A stretch of 64,000 nt of DNA from Patescibacteria group bacterium. GTDB lineage: Bacteria; Patescibacteriota; Minisyncoccia; Phycocordibacterales; Phycocordibacteraceae. The translations under genes and the position numbers were made by a program. Below, piece after piece: positions 17,829 through 48,160 of this stretch. A model generated the notes under the pieces. That model made no database searches, was not told the origin of the DNA, and was given only the letters and a program-made list of their open reading frames with translations. The stretch covers positions 480,002 to 544,001 of the forward strand of contig JBBTSZ010000002.1 of the NCBI GenBank assembly GCA_038064495.1, in the 5' to 3' direction. Position 1 is the first letter of the stretch. Every line of letters starts with the position of its first letter.

Positions 17829-18467
17829 TTATGAATATTTTTCTTCTTTGATCTTCTTAAGAAGATCTGTAAAAGCCACATATTCAATATCGTGTTCTTT
17901 AAAATAAGCCAGCGTGTCCTTCAGTTCTTGAGTCTGGTTACTCGAGTCAAGTAAATCTCCGAACGCAAACATCTCTCTGGCCTCATATTCCTGATAGCCA
18001 ATCAAGATTATTCTCAATGGTTTGCCGTAAAGTCTTGGTAGTTCACCATACTTGAGCGGCACACCGAGTATTTTTTCTCCGGCGGTACCTGGCGTAGTCC
18101 AACTCCGACCCTTAACTTCGTATACGAAATCATCGCATTCGAGATCAGGTTTGTATTTCTTATTTCTGACAGAACTCTGAATCCCGATAGTATTTCGGAC
18201 ATTCTTACGCCCTATAGCAACCAGAGCTTCCATCGCCAAGTCCTGACAAAGTTTTGTTGTCCATTGTGTTCCTTCTTCATGTCGAATTACCTCATTTGCC
18301 CATTGTGTTTCTATTTTATTTGCTTCCTTGAGCTTTTTTTGATTCGACGTGGTTTTCAATGAATCTTCAGTAAGCGGCTCATGACACCATTTTATTACGG
18401 TCGGATTATCAAGTAGACACAGCCCAATTTCTGCTTCGACTTCAACATCCTCGATTTCTTCTTCCAT
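17829..18467 (-). CDS. Putative Type II restriction endonuclease
   Basis: Directly downstream of the MTase (ends 2 nt apart), with low GC and a PD-(D/E)xK-like ECDDFVYEVKGR segment. Confidence 0.5.
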   Translation of the reverse strand: MEEEIEDVEVEAEIGLCLLDNPTVIKWCHEPLTEDSLKTTSNQKKLKEANKIETQWANEVIRHEEGTQWTTKLCQDLAMEALVAIGRKNVRNTIGIQSSVRNKKYKPDLECDDFVYEVKGRSWTTPGTAGEKILGVPLKYGELPRLYGKPLRIILIGYQEYEAREMFAFGDLLDSSNQTQELKDTLAYFKEHDIEYVAFTDLLKKIKEEKYS

Positions 18468-19607: not shown

Positions 19608-20111
19608 CTATAGCAATTTGTCCTGAAAACTGCCGATTGCATCAAGCAGTTTGTTGGTTCGATTTTCGTTCAGGGCCATAATGTTTTTCCCTTCTTCGAT
19701 AACCTCTCTCTTAATGCATCCATCCATGAAGTCAGTGAAGAGTCTGAAGTCTTGTTCTTTAATGAATCCAGGAAATTGCTCAAATAAAGATCTGATATTG
19801 TCGCGATGCTCTATCCACTTAATGGTAAGAGGTGACATATGCTTTTGCATTAGATCAATCCTTACTTCAACATTCCTCCATTCTTCGATATCCTTTGAAA
19901 CTTCTTCTCGATTTTCTACTAACAACTTCATCACTAGGAGATGGAACTTGAGTGGGCCATAGAGCTTTTCATAACGCATATCCTCTCTGGTGCGATCTGA
20001 TAGGCGCCAGCTAATAACTCCAGAGAATAATGCAGACAAAAGACTTGAGCCAAGAATGATAGTGGCGATTGCCGTCCAAGGAATACCCTGAAGCAGAGTT
20101 GTGGTCTCCAT
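19608..20111 (-). CDS. Hypothetical N-terminally anchored protein
   Basis: Low-GC ORF of 167 aa with an N-terminal TM helix. Confidence 0.45.
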   Translation of the reverse strand: METTTLLQGIPWTAIATIILGSSLLSALFSGVISWRLSDRTREDMRYEKLYGPLKFHLLVMKLLVENREEVSKDIEEWRNVEVRIDLMQKHMSPLTIKWIEHRDNIRSLFEQFPGFIKEQDFRLFTDFMDGCIKREVIEEGKNIMALNENRTNKLLDAIGSFQDKLL

Positions 20112-34574: not shown

Positions 34575-34905
34575 ACCGCCCCATCATATGGGGCGGAAAG
34601 TGGTGATTCAGGCAACCTACGGCGACTCCTTTTTCCCGCAGGATTCAGAGTCTTGTCTCCAGCACGGGTGGTGTTTCATTGGCGACTTCCGTCTCCCACC
34701 TAGTATGCGCACAATTGAATGCGCAGAGGTACGCGATGCCAGATAAGCTAACGATCCGCCCCAGAGGAATCGAACCTCCGGACATTCCGACACCATCGGA
34801 ACATCGGCTGTTAAGGAGTCGAACCCTCTTTACCCTCACCAACAAGGAACAGCAGGACCTCAAGCGTTTGCCTGAATCACCGACCGCAAGTCTACCCTGA
34901 CCGCG
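34575..34905 (-). ncRNA. tRNA-like / tmRNA-like structured RNA region (identity unresolved) with its own terminator
   Basis: On the minus strand there are two GGTTCGAnTCC T-loop-like motifs, a GGU-anticodon-like hairpin, the 3' acceptor-like GGGGCGG-A, and a 14-bp long-range helix (GGTGATTCAGGCAA/TTGCCTGAATCACC). A short frame GCC AAT GAA... (ANETPPVLETRL*) is present. A terminator lies at 34566-34597. Confidence 0.3.
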
Positions 34906-42456: not shown

Positions 42457-43209
42457 CTATTTCCAACCGTTAACATCGAGTGCTCGTTCTGCGGCTGATT
42501 GCTCTGCCTCTTGCTTGCTCTTTCCATCACCTCGTGCGAGTTCTTTCTCGCCAAGGAACACGCCCACAATGAATTTCTTATCGTGATCAGGACCTTCTTC
42601 AGACAAGGTCTTGTAGGTAGGCGTAATATTCTTCTTTTCCTGTGCGGCTTCCTGTAGACGTGACTTTGCGTCTTGGTATGCCTTGTTCGCGATGATGGCA
42701 TCAATCTTTGGATAGAGATGTTTTGCAACGAATGCTTCAGCCGCGTCATACCCTTGGTCGAGATAGAGTGCGCCAAGCACCGCTTCAAATGCGTTTGCAA
42801 GAATGATGTCGCGCGCTCGCCCAGTGTCCTTTGCCTCACCCTTTGATAGAAAGAGCATGTCGTTCAGTCCCATCATCTTCGCACTCTCCGCAAGCGATAC
42901 GGTGTTTACGAGCGAGGCGCGGTACGCCGTAAGATCTCCTTCAGGATTACTTGGAAACTTCGTAAAAAGAAAGTGGGTGGTAGCAAGTTCCAGTACGGCG
43001 TCGCCAAGAAACTCAAGACGTTCATTATGAGGACCTGCGGCCTTGTTCTCATTCAGATAGGAGCGATGCGTGAGAGCCTCCACAAGGAGGTCCTTATTCT
43101 TGAACGAAAGTCCGAGGACTTCTTCATGCGTGGCACTTTGGTTCATACACGAAAGACTATCGTAAAACGCCAAGAATGCCAGTGACGTATAAAAGTGTAC
43201 CCCTCCCAC
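42457..43209 (-). CDS. rnc: Ribonuclease III
   Basis: ERLEFLGDAVLEL signature and a C-terminal dsRBD. Confidence 0.92.
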   Translation of the reverse strand: MGGVHFYTSLAFLAFYDSLSCMNQSATHEEVLGLSFKNKDLLVEALTHRSYLNENKAAGPHNERLEFLGDAVLELATTHFLFTKFPSNPEGDLTAYRASLVNTVSLAESAKMMGLNDMLFLSKGEAKDTGRARDIILANAFEAVLGALYLDQGYDAAEAFVAKHLYPKIDAIIANKAYQDAKSRLQEAAQEKKNITPTYKTLSEEGPDHDKKFIVGVFLGEKELARGDGKSKQEAEQSAAERALDVNGWK

Positions 43210-43251: not shown

Positions 43252-43893
43252 CTAGAGTCCAAGTGTCACAGGGTCCAGATTGCGGACCAGAAGACGACAC
43301 TGTGTGCCTTGAAAAAGGCGGTCAGACCACTCATCACGCCCCTCCATCCAATGATACATTCCAGGATACACACGACCAATAAAGACCGAACCGTATTTAT
43401 CCCGAGAAGGGTAGAAGTTGGAGTAGCCGTTAGTGCACATCCCCGTCATTTTGCCTCGGTCAGTAAGGTCCGTCATCTCCTCAATATGAGCTGAGCCAAC
43501 AAGATAGCCGCGCTCTTTAAGAAGTTTGACTATCGCTTTATACGGAGTGTGCACCGGCACACCGAGCACAGAGGAGAGCCACTCTACGAATTTAGCATCT
43601 CGCACTGGACTTAACACCGTAATAAAGCTTCCGTCTGCGAGCGCAGTCACCATCGCATCCGTAAACAGTGGTGGTACTTTCCGGGAAGCGACTTTTTGGG
43701 CCGGCACACTAGCCGGACTCTTGAGACTCTCAGCAAGACTTTTGAGCCACGTAGTGTAACGCACCATACGTTCCTTTGGTGCGAGGTCGATGATGGTCTG
43801 CACTTCTTCGGACGTAAGTTCATCCCACCTTATTTCCTGGCTGAATTGGCCTACAAGTGTGAGAGCTTGACCGCGTGTTACGGCTTTACCCAT
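43252..43893 (-). CDS. Hypothetical protein
   Basis: About 213 aa from the internal Met. Confidence 0.4.
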   Translation of the reverse strand: MGKAVTRGQALTLVGQFSQEIRWDELTSEEVQTIIDLAPKERMVRYTTWLKSLAESLKSPASVPAQKVASRKVPPLFTDAMVTALADGSFITVLSPVRDAKFVEWLSSVLGVPVHTPYKAIVKLLKERGYLVGSAHIEEMTDLTDRGKMTGMCTNGYSNFYPSRDKYGSVFIGRVYPGMYHWMEGRDEWSDRLFQGTQCRLLVRNLDPVTLGL

Positions 43894-44049
43894 GACATGT
43901 TCTCCTATGGAGTGAGCGCTTGACCATTTGCACCTTGCAAACAGCTTGACGCAGCTGTGGTTTCGCCACAGCAGGAAACGGCCCGAATGAGGCACTTTCT
44001 GCTGGGGCGAAATTCTCTATTTTTTCAAAGAGCTTTATGTACTAAAACA

Positions 44050-44949
44050 TTATTTTCTTGATTTGTCCAAAAGCTTCTGCACCGCTGCCGTCACAATCGG
44101 CAACATATCGTCATAGAAGTTGAGGTCGAGAATGTCTGGGAGGCGGAACCATTTTGCGTCGTCTAACCCCCCACTCTTTTTGAGCTCAAGTGTCTCAAAC
44201 GGTGAATGCACGAGGAAGAAGTACACGTGCTTACGCACCTTTCCTTTTTCAGGGTGACTCGCGACATACTCGTTTTCTCCTACCTGACTTTCGACTCGCA
44301 CATCAGTGAGACCCAGTTCTTCAGCCACTACGCGCTTTACGCCCACTTCAGGAGTTGCATCATTTTCAATATGTCCCTTGGACAAGGTCCAGCGTCCAAA
44401 CACGTCATGCACGAGCGCAAGATAGTACTGTCCGTCATGTTCGGCGTAGACGATGGCACCACCGAGCTTCTCAAGTGGCAAGTCTTCGCGCTTCACACGC
44501 TCTTTCTTTCCGGTTTCTTCTTTACCTGGCTCACCAAGCTCTTTATAGACGGCACCGAGCACGCCGTTTACAAAACGACCACTGGAATCTCCGCCGAACA
44601 CTTTGGCAAGTTCAATTGCTTCGTTAATAGCTACCTTTGCTGGCACCTGTGCGCGATCGGCAAAGAGAAGTTCGTAGAGACCGATGCGGAGAATATTTCT
44701 ATCGACGGGTGCAATCTTATCGAGTGGCCAATCGGGTGCTGCTTTTTCAATCACGAGGTCGAGGTCAGGCTTTTTTGCTAGTACCCCTGCGAGGAGGGCT
44801 TCCATGAATGGCTTATCGGTATCGTCTCCACCGAATTCTTCGACGTTACGCTTCAACATTTCGTCGGCACCTTTTTCGTCGGCACCAGTAGAATCCCACT
44901 CAAAAAGAGTTTGCAGAACTACCGAACGGGCTAGGTGTCTATTCGCCAT
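44050..44949 (-). CDS. nusB: NusB antitermination factor fused to a C-terminal NUDIX hydrolase domain
   Basis: NusB core LRIGLYEL...KVAINEAIELAKVFGG...FVNGVL; C-terminal Nudix box GHIENDATPEVGVKRVVAEELGL. Confidence 0.85.
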   Translation of the reverse strand: MANRHLARSVVLQTLFEWDSTGADEKGADEMLKRNVEEFGGDDTDKPFMEALLAGVLAKKPDLDLVIEKAAPDWPLDKIAPVDRNILRIGLYELLFADRAQVPAKVAINEAIELAKVFGGDSSGRFVNGVLGAVYKELGEPGKEETGKKERVKREDLPLEKLGGAIVYAEHDGQYYLALVHDVFGRWTLSKGHIENDATPEVGVKRVVAEELGLTDVRVESQVGENEYVASHPEKGKVRKHVYFFLVHSPFETLELKKSGGLDDAKWFRLPDILDLNFYDDMLPIVTAAVQKLLDKSRK

Positions 44950-45038
44950 ATGAAAGAGCTATACACCTACAATACCTCAGAATTGAAAACACACGAGTCG
45001 CTTCCACGACTCGTGTGTATATCGTTCTATTGAAACTA

Positions 45039-45497
45039 TTATCCTAACTTGAGTGCTTCTCTTAGAGTCTCACGAAAACCCGGAAGCAGTTTAACTTTAT
45101 ATGCTTCGCTGGGTTTTAACCACATATACTTTTGTGCTTCCCAATCTAAAATTATTTTATCAGTGTTCACCTTGACGAGTACCGGATGAACAATCCAAGT
45201 CTTCTTATACTTCGGTGCTTCTTGGAGCAAAATCCTTCCAAGTTTGATTGAGTTGATATTTCTTCTTGAAAACCCAACTTCCTCACGGAGCTCTTCGTAT
45301 ACTTTTTGATCAAGACTTTTATGGTCGTCAAGAAATCCTGATATTCCATTCCAGTATCCTGGATAGAGTCGCATGTTCTTACTCCTCTGTACTAAAAGAA
45401 TCTTTCCATTAAAAAACAGGACGCAGTTCAGTACTGGTGCCCAGCGAACATTTGTAAAATCGACCTGTCCCGGTTTTGGAATAAATCTCTTTTCCAT
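45039..45497 (-). CDS. NUDIX hydrolase
   Basis: Nudix box-like GISGFLDD...YEELREEVG; low GC. Confidence 0.65.
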   Translation of the reverse strand: MEKRFIPKPGQVDFTNVRWAPVLNCVLFFNGKILLVQRSKNMRLYPGYWNGISGFLDDHKSLDQKVYEELREEVGFSRRNINSIKLGRILLQEAPKYKKTWIVHPVLVKVNTDKIILDWEAQKYMWLKPSEAYKVKLLPGFRETLREALKLG

Positions 45498-45657: not shown

Positions 45658-46002
45658 CTAGACGCCGCCGCCGAATCCAGAACGACTCTTCGCCTTCCCT
45701 GTCACCATGCGTCCAAGAAGTCCTTGGGACTTTGTTTCGCGTTCCTCACCAATTGGACTGGTGTTGGTTCCCTTCTCTACCTTCTCGGCTTTCGCCTTTT
45801 CCTTGTCCTTCTTCTCTACCTTCTTTATCTCCTTCTTGGAAACAATCTGCTTGCCGCGGTACATACCGGTGGATTCATCAAGCGTGTGTGGAAGACGTAG
45901 TGCGCCTGATTCTTTATCGGTCACCAAATTAGTCCCCGAAAGCGCATGATGGCTTCGGCGGTTCTTGGTGTGCGAACTCGTGTGGCGCATTCGTACTGAC
46001 AT
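45658..46002 (-). CDS. rpmF: 50S ribosomal protein bL32 with Lys-rich C-terminal extension
   Basis: [27 protein letters not shown]...YRGKQIV matches the bL32 N-terminal pattern. Confidence 0.8.
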
Positions 46003-46500: not shown

Positions 46501-47097
46501 CTAGAGATGTACGAACGTCGTTCGGTGAAGAGCACAAAGCCCGTGCTCACGGAGTGCCTCGTAGTGTGCCTTCGTGCCGTAGCCCTTATGTATTTCAAAC
46601 CCATACTGCGGAAATTCTGATGCTACCTTTTTCATATACCTATCGCGCGTCACTTTCGCAGCTATGGAAGCGAGCATAATGGCAGGTACGAGAGCGTCTC
46701 CCCCGATCACGGTCTCCTGTTCATATTCAGGCGGTGCCTTGAGTGAACCATCCAGAAATACTTTTCCGTTTTCGGGATTCTCGAGTAATTTCCGCACACC
46801 CAGACTCACCGCGTTCCGTACGGCAGGCGCGATTCCACCCTCGTCAATCAGTCGAGCTGAGACGAGTTGCACTCGCACACTAAGCGCTTCTTTTTTCAAT
46901 TCTTCCTGCAGAAGCGCGAACAAGGCTTCCCTCTTTTTCTCGCTAAGTTTCTTGGAATCGTTGAGTCCAGGGAAAACCGCGAGAAAATCGTATCCCTCTG
47001 GCGCACAGACGATGCCGACCGCAACGGGACCTGCAAGTGGTCCACGTCCTGCCTCGTCTACCCCTACTACAAATCTATTTCCGGAGTCCGAGTGCAT
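46501..47097 (-). CDS. rnhB: Ribonuclease HII
   Basis: VVGVDEAGRGPLAGPV active-site motif; the start is placed at the internal Met26. Confidence 0.88.
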   Translation of the reverse strand: MHSDSGNRFVVGVDEAGRGPLAGPVAVGIVCAPEGYDFLAVFPGLNDSKKLSEKKREALFALLQEELKKEALSVRVQLVSARLIDEGGIAPAVRNAVSLGVRKLLENPENGKVFLDGSLKAPPEYEQETVIGGDALVPAIMLASIAAKVTRDRYMKKVASEFPQYGFEIHKGYGTKAHYEALREHGLCALHRTTFVHL

Positions 47098-48160
47098 CAC
47101 GTAGTGTATTAGCTTTAAAGGCAACTGACTCAAGAGCCCGAATACGTTTTGCATATGCCTGTATGCGAGCACGTGGTTTCACTTCTTTATCCGGATTCGC
47201 GACAACATCTAAAATATTTTCGAATGAGAGGTTCCCTATTCCATCCAGGTAAATGAGGTGGTCTGCTAGCGTGACCAACTCAGGATCAGTCGCTAATACC
47301 TTTTCCCATTCACCAACCAAGCCATGCAAATCTTGGTTTCCATTTATATAGGCCTGAACAAAACTATTCCAAAGTTGTTCCGTAGGGACTTCAAGACGTG
47401 ATGCAAGCATTTCAAGTAAAATAGAGAACGTAAGACGTTCTAATGAATAGGAGCCATCACCAATTTCCGTATACACATTATCGTCTTTAAGATATGAACT
47501 GTTACCCGTTCGTATCAGATATTCCCGTAACACTTCCTGCCCAATATTCTCAGTAATGGCTTCATTAAGACCAGTGCCGAGTTTAAGTACTTCCGTTCCA
47601 TCAAGGTTAGTGGTAATGAATGTCTCCTTTAGACCAGACTTAATGACAGATTTAAGAGGATACGTTCTTACCTCAGAACGTTCTTTCGCGTTTATCCATC
47701 CCTCACAGGCATACCCTCCTCGTATATGCGTGGATTCATGAGTAAGTGTACGCAATATATTAATCATCTTCTCGGGCGGAGCTGATTCACCGTCAGAAAG
47801 TTCCCAAAGAAGATCGATTCCCCCCGTTTCAACATTTGCTCTTCCAGTAAGGGTTGACTCGCTGTGTTCATTTACTTGTAATTCTTTATGAAAGGTTATG
47901 CTGTCCTTTTTTATTTTGTGACCACTATTATTTACTGCTCCTGAACCACCTGACTTTTTTTCGAGTGAATCAAAAATCTCGTTCAGAGTTTTAAAATCTA
48001 CAGCGTCAAGAAACTGTTCCGGAGACGAGATCTTCTCAAAATCTCCTTTGAACTCCATTTCAGGCGTAAGTGTCAGCTCGGGCAATTGTTCGGGCTCTTT
48101 CGCTGCATCTACTACTTCCTGCTTTGGTGAGACTCTCTTACGCCAGAATTCCATGGACAA
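47075..48160 (-). CDS. Hypothetical protein
   Basis: 361 aa, relatively low GC, no recognised motifs. Confidence 0.45.
   Translation of the reverse strand: MSMEFWRKRVSPKQEVVDAAKEPEQLPELTLTPEMEFKGDFEKISSPEQFLDAVDFKTLNEIFDSLEKKSGGSGAVNNSGHKIKKDSITFHKELQVNEHSESTLTGRANVETGGIDLLWELSDGESAPPEKMINILRTLTHESTHIRGGYACEGWINAKERSEVRTYPLKSVIKSGLKETFITTNLDGTEVLKLGTGLNEAITENIGQEVLREYLIRTGNSSYLKDDNVYTEIGDGSYSLERLTFSILLEMLASRLEVPTEQLWNSFVQAYINGNQDLHGLVGEWEKVLATDPELVTLADHLIYLDGIGNLSFENILDVVANPDKEVKPRARIQAYAKRIRALESVAFKANTLRDALGLRK

What the first reader, a model, noticed from the sequence alone, without database searches (positions are those of the whole stretch)
44050..45497. NusB fused to a NUDIX hydrolase, followed by a second stand-alone low-GC NUDIX gene
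The 299-aa protein has a complete NusB core joined through a Lys/Glu-rich linker to a Nudix domain with a canonical Nudix box. Coupling an antitermination factor to a nucleotide-pyrophosphatase or RNA-decapping-type domain is an unusual architecture. The neighbouring 152-aa Nudix gene has markedly lower GC, suggesting separate acquisition.
Basis: partly seen in the sequence, partly recalled or inferred. Interest (0 to 1): 0.55.

Follow-up and report, generated by a model that had tools for sequence, protein, structure and literature searches.

The report
NusB fused to Ap4A-hydrolase-type Nudix domain
This ultra-small (Patescibacteria) bacterium makes its rRNA-transcription factor NusB as one protein with a nucleotide-hydrolase-like domain attached; the fusion is real, is shared by hundreds of related species and has not been studied, while the second small Nudix gene next to it is an ordinary recent insertion.

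Summary
Both ORFs exist as described. The 299-aa protein is a complete NusB (TIGR01951 125 bits, cutoff 88), then a 25-aa charged, disordered linker, then a Nudix domain. It is not a frameshift. Identical copies occur in independent assemblies, and full-length relatives occur in at least 583 species-level genomes in a conserved slot (RNase HII–L32–NusB-Nudix–RNase III–SMC).

The Nudix half belongs to the Ap4A-hydrolase/NUDT2 subfamily (profile E 1e-23 to Aquifex Ap4A hydrolase; TM 0.85). Its Nudix box is not canonical. Box positions 7 and 16 are Ala and Val, and this derived form is fixed across the window's clade. Other Patescibacteria (Microgenomates, CPR2) keep a canonical box, and some lineages have lost nearly all of it. 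In all of them the Ap4A-type pocket and scaffold residues persist, and dN/dS is about 0.13. The domain is therefore selected, and in this lineage probably for nucleotide or RNA-5'-end binding more than for hydrolysis.

The 152-aa Nudix gene (GC 0.39, z = −3.1) is absent from all 80 related loci. It is a clean lineage-specific insertion carrying its own terminator.

A boxA-like element overlaps the nusB start codon. No paper on the fusion was found. Interest is moderate.

The parts
44050..44949 (-). nusB-nudix CDS: 299 aa plus TAA stop, one uninterrupted ORF
   Evidence: The identical protein occurs in independent assemblies. Full-length relatives occur in at least 583 species genomes.
44536..44949 (-). 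NusB domain (residues 1-138), seven helices
   Evidence: Pfam PF01029 E 2e-35 and TIGR01951 125 bits > 88. Aligns to E. coli NusB residues 5-129. AF2 predicts helices H4-21 through H123-138. Foldseek TMt is 0.87 to E. coli NusB in the NusB-S10 complex 3imq. dN/dS is about 0.11.
44461..44535 (-). Charged flexible linker (residues 139-163, GEPGKEETGKKERVKREDLPLEKLG)
   Evidence: 56% K/R/E/D. pLDDT 53 for residues 141-150. Length varies from 17 to 51 aa among relatives. dN/dS is about 0.24. The GEPGK start is conserved in the closer relatives.
44053..44460 (-). Ap4A-hydrolase-type Nudix domain (residues 164-299)
   Evidence: PF00293 E 3e-11. The family profile gives E 1e-23 to Aquifex Ap4A hydrolase 3i7u, then CT771, Ndx1, the C. 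elegans Ap4A hydrolase and human NUDT2. Foldseek TMt is 0.85 to 3i7u. dN/dS is about 0.13.
44308..44376 (-). Altered Nudix box GHIENDATPEVGVKRVVAEELGL (residues 192-214). Box position 7 is Ala198 and box position 16 is Val207. R206, E210, E211 and G213 are kept.
   Evidence: The derived form GHIExD[AP]..R[VI]Vx[ED]E[LI]G[LI] is fixed in 120 clusters of the window's clade.
44949..44959 (-). Candidate boxA-like element GCTCTTTCATA in the very short leader. Its last A is the A of the ATG.
   Evidence: Matches 9 of 10 specified positions of the published consensus GYTCTTTAANA. It is the only one of 57 window ORFs with the motif close to its start. It sits at the same position in relatives: 24 of 78 loci score at least 8/10 against a null of 3.8%. 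Function is not shown.
44980..45018 (-). Terminator-like hairpin (13 bp stem) plus T-run that ends the 152-aa Nudix gene
   Evidence: It lies inside the inserted segment that relatives lack.
45039..45497 (-). Stand-alone 152-aa Nudix hydrolase gene. Low GC, lineage-specific insertion between rpmF and nusB-nudix.
   Evidence: PF00293 E 7e-10. GC 0.39, z = -3.07. Absent from loci L003-L082. Clean insertion in the alignment. The family is common in Patescibacteria, with the next cluster at 79% identity. E16, E19 and E20 of the box are invariant in 121 of 121 members.
45658..46002 (-). rpmF (L32): conserved upstream neighbour of nusB-nudix
   Evidence: Pfam PF01783. Syntenic in 75 of 80 related loci.
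42457..43209 (-). rnc (RNase III): conserved downstream neighbour. Here it is separated from nusB-nudix by a lineage-specific 247-aa ORF.
   Evidence: Pfam Ribonucleas_3_3 and dsrm. Syntenic in 78 of 80 related loci.

Best explanation
Shown: this is a genuine, vertically inherited single gene. It encodes the organism's NusB with an Ap4A-hydrolase-type Nudix domain on a flexible charged tether.

Inferred for the NusB half: it does the normal job. It pairs with S10 and binds boxA RNA in the rRNA antitermination complex.

Inferred for the Nudix half:
- It started as an active (di)nucleoside-polyphosphate hydrolase. Many Patescibacteria still have a canonical box.
- In the window's clade the metal-binding centre has been remodelled. 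Box Glu7 is now Ala/Pro and Glu16 is now Val/Ile.
- The Ap4A-type pocket and scaffold residues remain under strong purifying selection, including the adenine-stacking specificity Tyr.

Most likely role here (inferred): a nucleotide-binding or RNA-5'-end-binding accessory module, with weak or no hydrolysis. NusB carries it to the nascent rRNA leader and antitermination complex. This resembles SuhB, an enzyme fold that serves there without needing catalysis, and RsmB, which uses a NusB-like domain to bring an enzyme to rRNA.

The adjacent 152-aa Nudix gene is an unrelated, apparently intact Nudix hydrolase. It was inserted recently from a lower-GC Patescibacterium and is transcribed separately.
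For: Architecture and reality.

Conserved synteny L32-NusB-Nudix-RNase III in about 78 of 80 loci.

Complete NusB.

Ap4A-hydrolase subfamily:
- Profile E 1e-23 to 3i7u, 1.5e-16 to CT771 and about 1e-13 to the C. elegans and human enzymes.
- TMt 0.85 to 3i7u.
- Y228 aligns with the ApnA specificity tyrosine described in PMC5389931.

Altered box fixed in the clade.

Box states across the family:
- 9 of 52 representatives near the window have a fully canonical box, and 15 of 52 keep one or none of the five key residues.
- 97 of 118 are canonical in the Microgenomates/CPR2-centred sample.

Pocket and scaffold residues (W187, T188, K191, Y228, K240, Y244, W267, Y279) are 87-100% conserved even where catalytic residues are gone.

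dN/dS: Nudix 0.13 against NusB 0.11, with the box segment at 0.25.

Precedents:
- Non-catalytic Nudix domains in multidomain proteins bind small molecules or partner domains (PMC5389931).
- The NrtR Nudix domain is the top Foldseek hit by E-value.
- SuhB is recruited in a boxA/NusB-dependent way, and its phosphatase activity is not required (PMC6614801).

Second gene.
Against: - No experiment exists, and the ligand is unknown.
- E210/E211 (box 19/20) are retained. These correspond to the inferred catalytic base of the C. elegans Ap4A hydrolase and RppH (PMC5526541). Conserved E195/D197 might substitute for the lost acids, so residual or altered catalysis cannot be excluded.
- Most fusions outside this clade look catalytically intact, which argues that hydrolysis matters for the family's core function.
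- Some related lineages have a plain 140-aa NusB in the same slot, so the module is dispensable for NusB function.
- Physical coupling of the Nudix domain to the antitermination complex is inferred only from the covalent link.
- AF2 gives no confident inter-domain geometry (pTM 0.69).
- dS is near saturation, so the dN/dS values are only relative.
Confidence: 0.45

Rival explanations
1. The Nudix domain is still an active enzyme in this lineage. It would be a NusB-tethered Ap4A / Np4-cap / 5'-polyphosphate hydrolase that acts co-transcriptionally on the 5' end of boxA-containing (rRNA) transcripts, or that locally clears dinucleoside polyphosphates. The altered box would be a functional variant rather than a loss.
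For: - R206, E210, E211 and G213 are kept.
- Box 19/20 Glu is the inferred base in the C. elegans Ap4A hydrolase and RppH.
- E195 and D197 are fixed in the clade.
- Purifying selection is strong.
- Most fusions elsewhere are canonical.
- Dinucleoside polyphosphates cap bacterial RNA, and the Nudix enzyme RppH removes such caps (abstracts of PMC7044304 and PMC8833179).
- The gene is conserved next to RNase III, the rRNA-processing nuclease.
Against: - Box Glu16 is Val. A human Ap4A hydrolase structure was solved as the E58A mutant at this same position (entry title; position from the alignment; that E58A inactivates the enzyme is my inference). Glu7 is Ala.
- Several lineages have charge-reversed or missing box glutamates yet keep the domain.
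- The box evolves faster than the rest of the domain.
Confidence: 0.3
2. The fusion has no functional coupling. A housekeeping Ap4A hydrolase gene happened to fuse to nusB in a streamlined genome, and the two halves work independently.
For: - The linker is flexible, variable and disordered.
- The module is absent from some lineages that keep the same synteny.
- No inter-domain contacts are demonstrated.
Against: - The fusion is maintained across deeply diverged Patescibacteria (identity down to about 30%).
- The domain is kept under purifying selection even where the catalytic residues are lost. That is not expected for a mere housekeeping hydrolase.
- No unfused adjacent gene pair was found. 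The 'stand-alone' representatives were contig-end fragments or a chimera.
Confidence: 0.15
3. The Nudix half is a decaying remnant (a pseudo-domain) with no function.
For: The catalytic signature is incomplete here and nearly absent in some relatives. Pfam no longer detects Nudix in P0450 and P0470.
Against: - dN/dS is 0.13, about the same as NusB.
- The AF2 fold is confident, pLDDT above 90.
- Invariant or near-invariant W187, K191, Y244, W267 and Y279 across the family.
Confidence: 0.04
4. Artefact: a frameshift or misassembly joins two separate genes.
For: None found.
Against: - The identical protein occurs in independent assemblies.
- Thousands of clusters and at least 583 species genomes have the same continuous ORF.
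Confidence: 0.01

Closest known systems
NusB (E. coli / Aquifex / Thermotoga; component of the rRNA antitermination complex with NusE/S10, boxA RNA, NusA, NusG, SuhB)
   Same: The N-terminal 138 residues are a complete NusB. They pass the TIGR01951 equivalog cutoff, form seven helices, align to E. coli NusB residues 5-129, and give TM 0.87 to NusB in the NusB-S10 complex.
   Different: Carries a roughly 160-residue C-terminal extension (linker plus Nudix domain) that the solved NusB chains (139-156 aa) lack.
Asymmetric Ap4A/ApnA hydrolases of the Nudix superfamily (Aquifex aq_158 3i7u, Chlamydia CT771, Thermus Ndx1, C. elegans Ap4A hydrolase, human NUDT2)
   Same: These are the best sequence-profile and structural matches. 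They share the W-x-x-P-K-G segment, the ApnA specificity tyrosine (Y228) and the aromatic Y279.
   Different: Those enzymes are stand-alone and have a canonical box. The window protein lacks Glu at box positions 7 and 16 and is fused to NusB.
Non-catalytic Nudix domains in regulators (NrtR, AraR)
   Same: A Nudix fold with an imperfect box used for ligand binding inside a multidomain protein. The NrtR Nudix domain is the top Foldseek hit by E-value, and AraR also matches.
   Different: NrtR and AraR carry a DNA-binding winged-helix domain and are DNA-binding repressors. Here the partner is an RNA-binding antitermination factor.
SuhB (inositol monophosphatase fold in the rRNA antitermination complex)
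   Same: A precedent for a small-molecule-enzyme fold acting as an accessory subunit of the NusB/boxA-dependent complex, with catalysis not required (PMC6614801).
   Different: Unrelated fold, a separate polypeptide, and recruited non-covalently. Whether these genomes lack suhB was not testable here.
RsmB/Sun (NusB-like N-terminal domain plus 16S rRNA m5C methyltransferase)
   Same: A NusB-type RNA-binding domain covalently delivers a catalytic domain to rRNA. The NusB half gives sub-threshold RsmB hits.
   Different: The catalytic partner is a methyltransferase rather than a Nudix domain. RsmB's N-terminal domain is only NusB-like, whereas this one is a bona fide NusB.
Dcp2 (helical regulatory domain plus Nudix decapping domain)
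   Same: The same order of an all-helical N-terminal domain and a hinged Nudix domain. Foldseek aligns about 260 columns.
   Different: rmsd is about 11 Å and identity 12-16%. This is an architectural analogy only. The helical domains are unrelated, and Dcp2's profile E-value is far weaker than those of the Ap4A hydrolases.

Membership tests
NusB (TIGR01951 / PF01029) | Sequence model score above the curated cutoff | tested here: met
   TIGR01951 125 bits against cutoff 88.35. PF01029 122 bits against 23.1.
NusB (TIGR01951 / PF01029) | All-helical seven-helix fold superposable on solved NusB | tested here: met
   AF2 predicts seven helices at pLDDT above 90. Foldseek TMt is 0.86-0.87 to M. tuberculosis and E. 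coli NusB.
NusB (TIGR01951 / PF01029) | Binds NusE/S10 and boxA RNA and supports rRNA antitermination | not testable with these tools
   Indirect evidence only. R4 and R8 in the N-terminal basic segment are conserved. F16 aligns with E. coli Y18, and F126 aligns with F122.
Nudix superfamily (PF00293) | Pfam score above the gathering cutoff, and a Nudix alpha/beta/alpha fold | tested here: met
   43.8 bits against 21.1. Foldseek probability 1.00 to many Nudix structures.
Nudix hydrolases (catalytic) | Nudix box G-x5-E-x7-R-E-U-x-E-E-x-G-U complete | tested here: not met
   The box is GHIENDATPEVGVKRVVAEELGL, so positions 7 (Ala) and 16 (Val) deviate. This form is fixed in the clade.
Ap4A/ApnA hydrolase subfamily (NUDT2-like) | Closest solved relatives by profile and by fold are ApnA hydrolases | tested here: met
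   E 1e-23 (3i7u), 1.5e-16 (CT771), 8e-14 (Ndx1), 2e-13 (1kt9) and 3e-13 (NUDT2). TMt 0.84-0.85.
Ap4A/ApnA hydrolase subfamily (NUDT2-like) | Conserved specificity tyrosine contacting adenine (residue 87 in 1XSC numbering; PMC5389931) | tested here: met
   It aligns with Y228. Y/F is present in 89-100% of family members whatever the box state.
Ap4A/ApnA hydrolase subfamily (NUDT2-like) | Ap4A hydrolysis activity | not testable with these tools
Box Glu16 is missing, which equals human E58, the residue mutated in PDB 4ijx.
NrtR/AraR-type Nudix regulators | Nudix-like domain fused to a winged-helix DNA-binding domain | tested here: not met
   The only other domain is NusB. The resemblance is limited to the Nudix fold.
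RsmB | C-terminal SAM-dependent m5C methyltransferase domain | tested here: not met
   RsmB models match only the NusB-like part, far below cutoffs: 63 bits against 319.
boxA (NusB/S10 binding element) upstream of a Nus-factor gene | Match to the boxA consensus within 50 nt of the start codon, conserved in relatives | tested here: inconclusive
   GCTCTTTCATA matches 9 of 10 positions of GYTCTTTAANA, and the site is enriched and position-fixed in the clade. That consensus is for gamma-proteobacteria, only the G[CT]TCTTT core is conserved, and this organism's rRNA-leader boxA could not be retrieved.

The most novel reading that the evidence does not exclude
In Patescibacteria the rRNA antitermination factor NusB carries its own Ap4A-type Nudix module. 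This module would read or edit the 5' end of nascent boxA-containing transcripts (Np4A-type caps or 5' polyphosphate), or sense dinucleoside-polyphosphate alarmones. That would couple stress nucleotide signalling directly to rRNA transcription and maturation. In lineages with a dead box it would have become a purely architectural, SuhB-like subunit. The boxA-like element on the nusB start codon would add autoregulation.
Probability: 0.25. Interest if true: 0.75.

Novelty: new variant of a known kind. Interest (0 to 1): 0.5.

Why it matters
NusB is a universal, well-studied factor, and all solved NusB chains found here are single-domain proteins (139-156 aa). Its obligate fusion to an Ap4A-hydrolase-type domain across a huge, mostly uncultured phylum suggests an unrecognised link between dinucleoside-polyphosphate or 5'-end chemistry and rRNA transcription and maturation.

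The family also offers a natural series from an intact Nudix site, through a remodelled one, to a dead one on a single scaffold. That series is useful for separating binding from catalysis.

Annotation pipelines currently label these proteins simply 'NusB', which hides the second domain. The finding is directly testable with recombinant protein. The second Nudix gene matters only as an example of small-gene insertion into a conserved operon-like cluster.

Tried and rejected
- Frameshift/misassembly: rejected.
- Looking for an unfused nusB + nudix gene pair through the short 'Nudix-only' representatives. L089 is a contig-end fragment preceded by adaptor-like sequence, and L088 is a 695-bp chimeric-looking contig, so there is no evidence either way.
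- A locus search with the 51-sequence diverse alignment failed because it had no conserved stretch. It was repeated with a tighter alignment.
- Taxonomic names for the most divergent representatives: cluster look-up gave almost none. This was solved with a homology search from P0207.
- Literature: no paper joining NusB and Nudix in a relevant way, none on NusB in CPR, and the 2017 Nudix-clan survey never mentions NusB.
- The C. elegans residue search found nothing, and the Ge et al. 2013 NUDT2 paper is not held.
- Phage and defence libraries gave only generic Nudix hits for both Nudix proteins and nothing for the lineage-specific neighbours.
- Rfam: no family in the window at gathering threshold, and none at E ≤ 1 around the ARAGORN 'tRNA-Stop'. 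That call is treated as a false positive.
- The second boxA-like copy just after the stop codon is not conserved in relatives and is not used as evidence.
- Dcp2-like decapping as the primary classification: rejected in favour of the ApnA-hydrolase subfamily.
Full report
**1. What is in the sequence**

On the minus strand, ORF 44050-44949 encodes 299 aa and ORF 45039-45497 encodes 152 aa.

The 299-aa protein has two domains.
- Pfam finds NusB at residues 7-136 (E 2e-35) and NUDIX at residues 174-282 (E 3e-11).
- The NCBIfam nusB equivalog TIGR01951 scores 125 bits against a cutoff of 88.
- The 25 residues between them, GEPGKEETGKKERVKREDLPLEKLG, are 56% charged. This is the only low-confidence stretch of an otherwise confident AlphaFold model (mean pLDDT 93; residues 141-150 at 53).

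The 152-aa protein is a single NUDIX domain (E 7e-10).

A 13-bp hairpin followed by a T-run (45018-44980, minus strand) lies between the two genes. It looks like an intrinsic terminator for the 152-aa gene.

The claim of a canonical Nudix box does not hold. Neither protein matches G-x5-E-x7-R-E-U-x-E-E-x-G-U.
- The fusion reads GHIENDATPEVGVKRVVAEELGL. Box position 7 is Ala and position 16 is Val.
- The stand-alone protein reads GFLDDHKSLDQKVYEELREEVGF. Position 7 is Lys and position 15 is Glu.

**2. The fusion is real and widespread**

- The identical 299-aa protein is encoded in independent assemblies: a Logan assembly of ERR3858121 and NCBI GCA_964357455.1.
- All 120 best clusters (82-100% identity) carry both Pfam domains. 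They come from Patescibacteria/Paceibacterota MAGs and are named only 'NusB'.
- An exhaustive search of 50%-identity representatives found about 55 clusters that match end to end, with identity down to about 32%.
The best 80 are all full length and are labelled Kaiserbacteria, Adlerbacteria, Lloydbacteria, Paceibacterota and Parcubacteria.
- A search started from a divergent member added Microgenomates, CPR2 (a GW2011 genome present in UniRef) and Komeilibacteria.

The architecture is therefore phylum-wide and has been sitting in public databases.

I found no paper that discusses it.
- The 20 papers listed of the 36 holding both words were irrelevant by title and abstract.
- None of the 15 papers listed in the CPR search contains the word NusB.
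- The 2017 Nudix-clan survey never mentions NusB.

**3. Genomic context**

tblastn of the window's neighbours against the 80 loci shows a conserved order: RNase HII (72/80), L32 (75/80), NusB-Nudix, RNase III (78/80), SMC (70/80).

Some related lineages have a plain 140-aa NusB in the same L32-NusB-RNase III slot (L092). The Nudix module is therefore an accessory that was gained or lost at the 3' end of nusB.

The short 'Nudix-only' representatives are not evidence for an unfused pair. One is a contig-end fragment preceded by adaptor-like sequence, and the other is a 695-bp chimeric-looking contig.

**4. The NusB half**

- It aligns to E. coli NusB residues 5-129 of 139.
- The model has seven helices and superposes on E. 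coli NusB from the NusB-S10 complex with TM 0.87.
- R4, R8, D83, R88, E93, F96, P103, E110, F126 and G129 are at least 90% conserved in the family.
- dN/dS is about 0.11.

I take it to be the organism's working NusB. Binding to S10 and boxA could not be tested.

**5. The Nudix half**

A profile of the domain alone finds Ap4A/ApnA hydrolases first:

| Solved relative | E-value |
|---|---|
| Aquifex Ap4A hydrolase (3i7u) | 1e-23 |
| Chlamydia CT771 | 1.5e-16 |
| Thermus Ndx1 | 8e-14 |
| C. elegans Ap4A hydrolase (1kt9) | 2e-13 |
| Human NUDT2 | 3e-13 |
| Dcp2 | about 1e-9 |

The model superposes on 3i7u (TM 0.85) and Ndx1 (0.84). By E-value the top Foldseek hit is the non-catalytic ADP-ribose-binding Nudix domain of the regulator NrtR.

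The family's most conserved positions match the Ap4A-hydrolase signature.
- W187, T188, K191 and G192 correspond to W-x-x-P-K-G.
- Y228 aligns with the human tyrosine that the Nudix-clan survey names as the ApnA specificity motif contacting adenine. That residue is 87 in 1XSC numbering and Y82 in native numbering.
- K240, Y244, W267 and Y279 are also shared.

**6. State of the catalytic centre**

I scored five key box residues: E7, R15, E16, E19 and E20.
- In 52 full-length cluster representatives near the window, 9 keep all five and 15 keep one or none.
- In the Microgenomates/CPR2-centred sample, 97 of 118 keep all five.
- Both samples are biased towards their query. Together they show that intact, remodelled and dead boxes all coexist. 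By parsimony the intact box is ancestral.

In the window's own clade (120 clusters) the box is a fixed derived form, GHIExD[AP]...R[VI]Vx[ED]E[LI]G[LI].

Position 16 corresponds to human E58, the residue mutated in PDB entry 4ijx (entry title; numbering). That this mutation inactivates the enzyme is my inference.

Positions 19 and 20 are kept. These correspond to the inferred catalytic base of the C. elegans enzyme and RppH (PMC5526541). Catalysis here is therefore doubtful but not excluded.

The pocket and scaffold residues stay 87-100% conserved even in lineages that retain one or none of the five catalytic residues.

dN/dS of the Nudix half is 0.13. The linker is at 0.24 and the box segment at 0.25. 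dS is about 1, so these values are only relative.

The domain is clearly under selection, and in part for something other than hydrolysis.

**7. Mechanism (inferred)**

NusB is covalently tied to a nucleotide-binding module of the Ap4A-hydrolase type through a flexible tether. NusB's known job is to bind boxA in the nascent rRNA leader together with S10.

The simplest reading is that the Nudix module is delivered to that complex.
- In canonical-box lineages it could hydrolyse a dinucleoside polyphosphate or an Np4/5'-polyphosphate RNA end. Such caps exist in bacteria and are removed by the Nudix enzyme RppH (abstracts of PMC7044304 and PMC8833179).
- In the window's lineage it more likely binds than cleaves.

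Precedents support each step.
- Non-catalytic Nudix domains in multidomain proteins bind small molecules or partner domains (PMC5389931).
- SuhB, an inositol monophosphatase, joins the same complex in a boxA/NusB-dependent way without needing its activity (PMC6614801).
- RsmB joins a NusB-like domain to an rRNA-modifying enzyme (sub-threshold RsmB hits).

I give this reading about 0.45. A still-active tethered enzyme gets 0.3, an uncoupled fusion 0.15, a decaying remnant 0.04 and an artefact 0.01.

**8. The 152-aa Nudix gene**

- GC is 0.39 and GC3 is 0.37. It has the lowest GC of the 57 ORFs in the window (z = -3.07).
- It is absent from all 80 related loci.
- An alignment with the closest relatives shows a clean insertion of the gene plus its hairpin. 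The insertion sits between the rpmF spacer and a conserved nusB leader.
- Its family of roughly 150-aa proteins is common in Patescibacteria. The next cluster is only 79% identical, against 90% for the fusion.
- Its relatives sit in variable accessory contexts of 41-44% GC genomes. In one locus it lies among four other small Nudix genes, and in another an integrase gene lies about 1.6 kb away.
- Box E16, E19 and E20 are invariant in 121 of 121 members. There is a family-wide charge swap at positions 7 (K/R) and 15 (mostly E/D). It looks like an intact hydrolase of unknown specificity.

**9. A boxA-like element at the nusB start**

The leader reads TATAGCTCTTTCATATG. GCTCTTTCATA (44959-44949) matches 9 of 10 specified positions of the published gamma-proteobacterial boxA consensus GYTCTTTAANA (PMC5725501).

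- It is the only one of 57 window ORFs with the motif next to its start.
- Across 78 loci, 24 score at least 8/10 (null 3.8%) and 10 score 9/10 (null 0.5%). The site is always at -13 to -9, often behind a TGCTATACT extended -10-like sequence.
- That paper showed that Nus factors autoregulate through such elements (suhB, nusE, ribH-nusB).
- Only the G[CT]TCTTT core is conserved here, and this organism's rRNA boxA could not be retrieved. It is therefore a lead, not a finding.
- A second copy just after the stop codon is not conserved in relatives.

**10. Verdict**

The fusion is unusual relative to the solved, single-domain NusB proteins, but it is a clade-wide trait rather than a singular event.

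It is a new variant of a known kind, recorded in databases but not found in the searched literature. Interest is 0.5.

Noticed in passing
window 44949-44959 (- strand); same position in L003-L049: A boxA-like element, GCTCTTTCATA, overlaps the nusB-nudix start codon. It matches 9 of 10 positions of the published consensus GYTCTTTAANA. It is position-fixed and enriched in the clade, and is often preceded by a TGCTATACT extended -10-like sequence, which implies a very short SD-less leader. It may mean Nus-factor autoregulation.
   Followed up: partly
window 44023-44033 (- strand): A second boxA-like copy, GCTCTTTGAAA, lies 17 nt after the nusB-nudix stop codon. It is not conserved in relatives (scores match the null), so it may be chance or specific to this lineage.
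   Followed up: yes
window 45270-45338 (- strand) and proteins P0271-P0390: The stand-alone 152-aa Nudix family has a family-wide charge swap in the Nudix box. Position 7 is K/R and position 15 is mostly E/D, instead of E and R. E16, E19 and E20 are invariant in 121 of 121 members. This looks like a compensatory reversal of the usual Glu-Arg pair.
   Followed up: partly
window 43252-43995 (- strand): A 247-aa ORF (called as 213 aa in public assemblies) lies between nusB-nudix and rnc. It is absent from all 80 related loci and has no Pfam, PHROG or PADLOC match. Its GC is normal (0.52).
   Followed up: partly
window 47075-48160 (- strand): A 361-aa ORF with low GC (0.42, z = -2.2) is absent from related loci and has no family match. 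It overlaps the 5' end of the long RNase HII ORF. It is probably another lineage-specific insertion.
   Followed up: partly
window 45658-46002 (- strand): Ribosomal protein L32 is 114 aa. The Pfam core covers residues 6-55, and the rest is a Lys/Glu-rich C-terminal extension. tblastn matches of comparable length in many closer relatives suggest they share it, while in the more distant ones only the core matches.
   Followed up: no
window 34755-34852 (- strand): ARAGORN calls a 98-nt 'tRNA-Stop' with anticodon TTA. Rfam finds nothing there even at E ≤ 1, and no tRNA anywhere in the 64 kb at gathering threshold. It is probably a false positive.
   Followed up: yes
window 17829-18467 and 19608-20111 (- strand): Two more ORFs have markedly low GC (0.405 and 0.41 against a mean of 0.50). 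They may be further foreign insertions.
   Followed up: no
window 44521-44535 (residues 139-143) and alignment A2: The motif G-E-P-G-K directly after the last NusB helix is conserved among the closer fusions, although the rest of the linker is variable. G139 and K143 are invariant, and E140 and P141 are at least 90% conserved. It could be a hinge or a docking motif.
   Followed up: no
L088 (695-bp contig) and L089:1-40: L088 encodes a Nudix protein whose N-terminal half is a generic MutT-like sequence and whose C-terminal half is about 70% identical by eye to the fused domain (not computed). It looks like a chimera or a recombinant. L089 starts with Nextera-adaptor-like sequence, an assembly contaminant.
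   Followed up: partly
L050-L066, about 40 nt upstream of the nusB-nudix start: More distant relatives (about 60-65% identity) lack the GCTCTTT element. They share a different conserved leader, roughly CAGTAAnAGTTTAGTACATT, downstream of a TATACT/TACACT -10-like box.
   Followed up: no
record titles of L006, L007, L011, L012 and others: Many MAGs carrying close relatives (about 60-86% identity) of this Kaiserbacteria/Paceibacterota-type gene and its synteny are titled 'uncultured Candidatus Saccharibacteria'. This is probably a default or mistaken taxonomic label.
   Followed up: no
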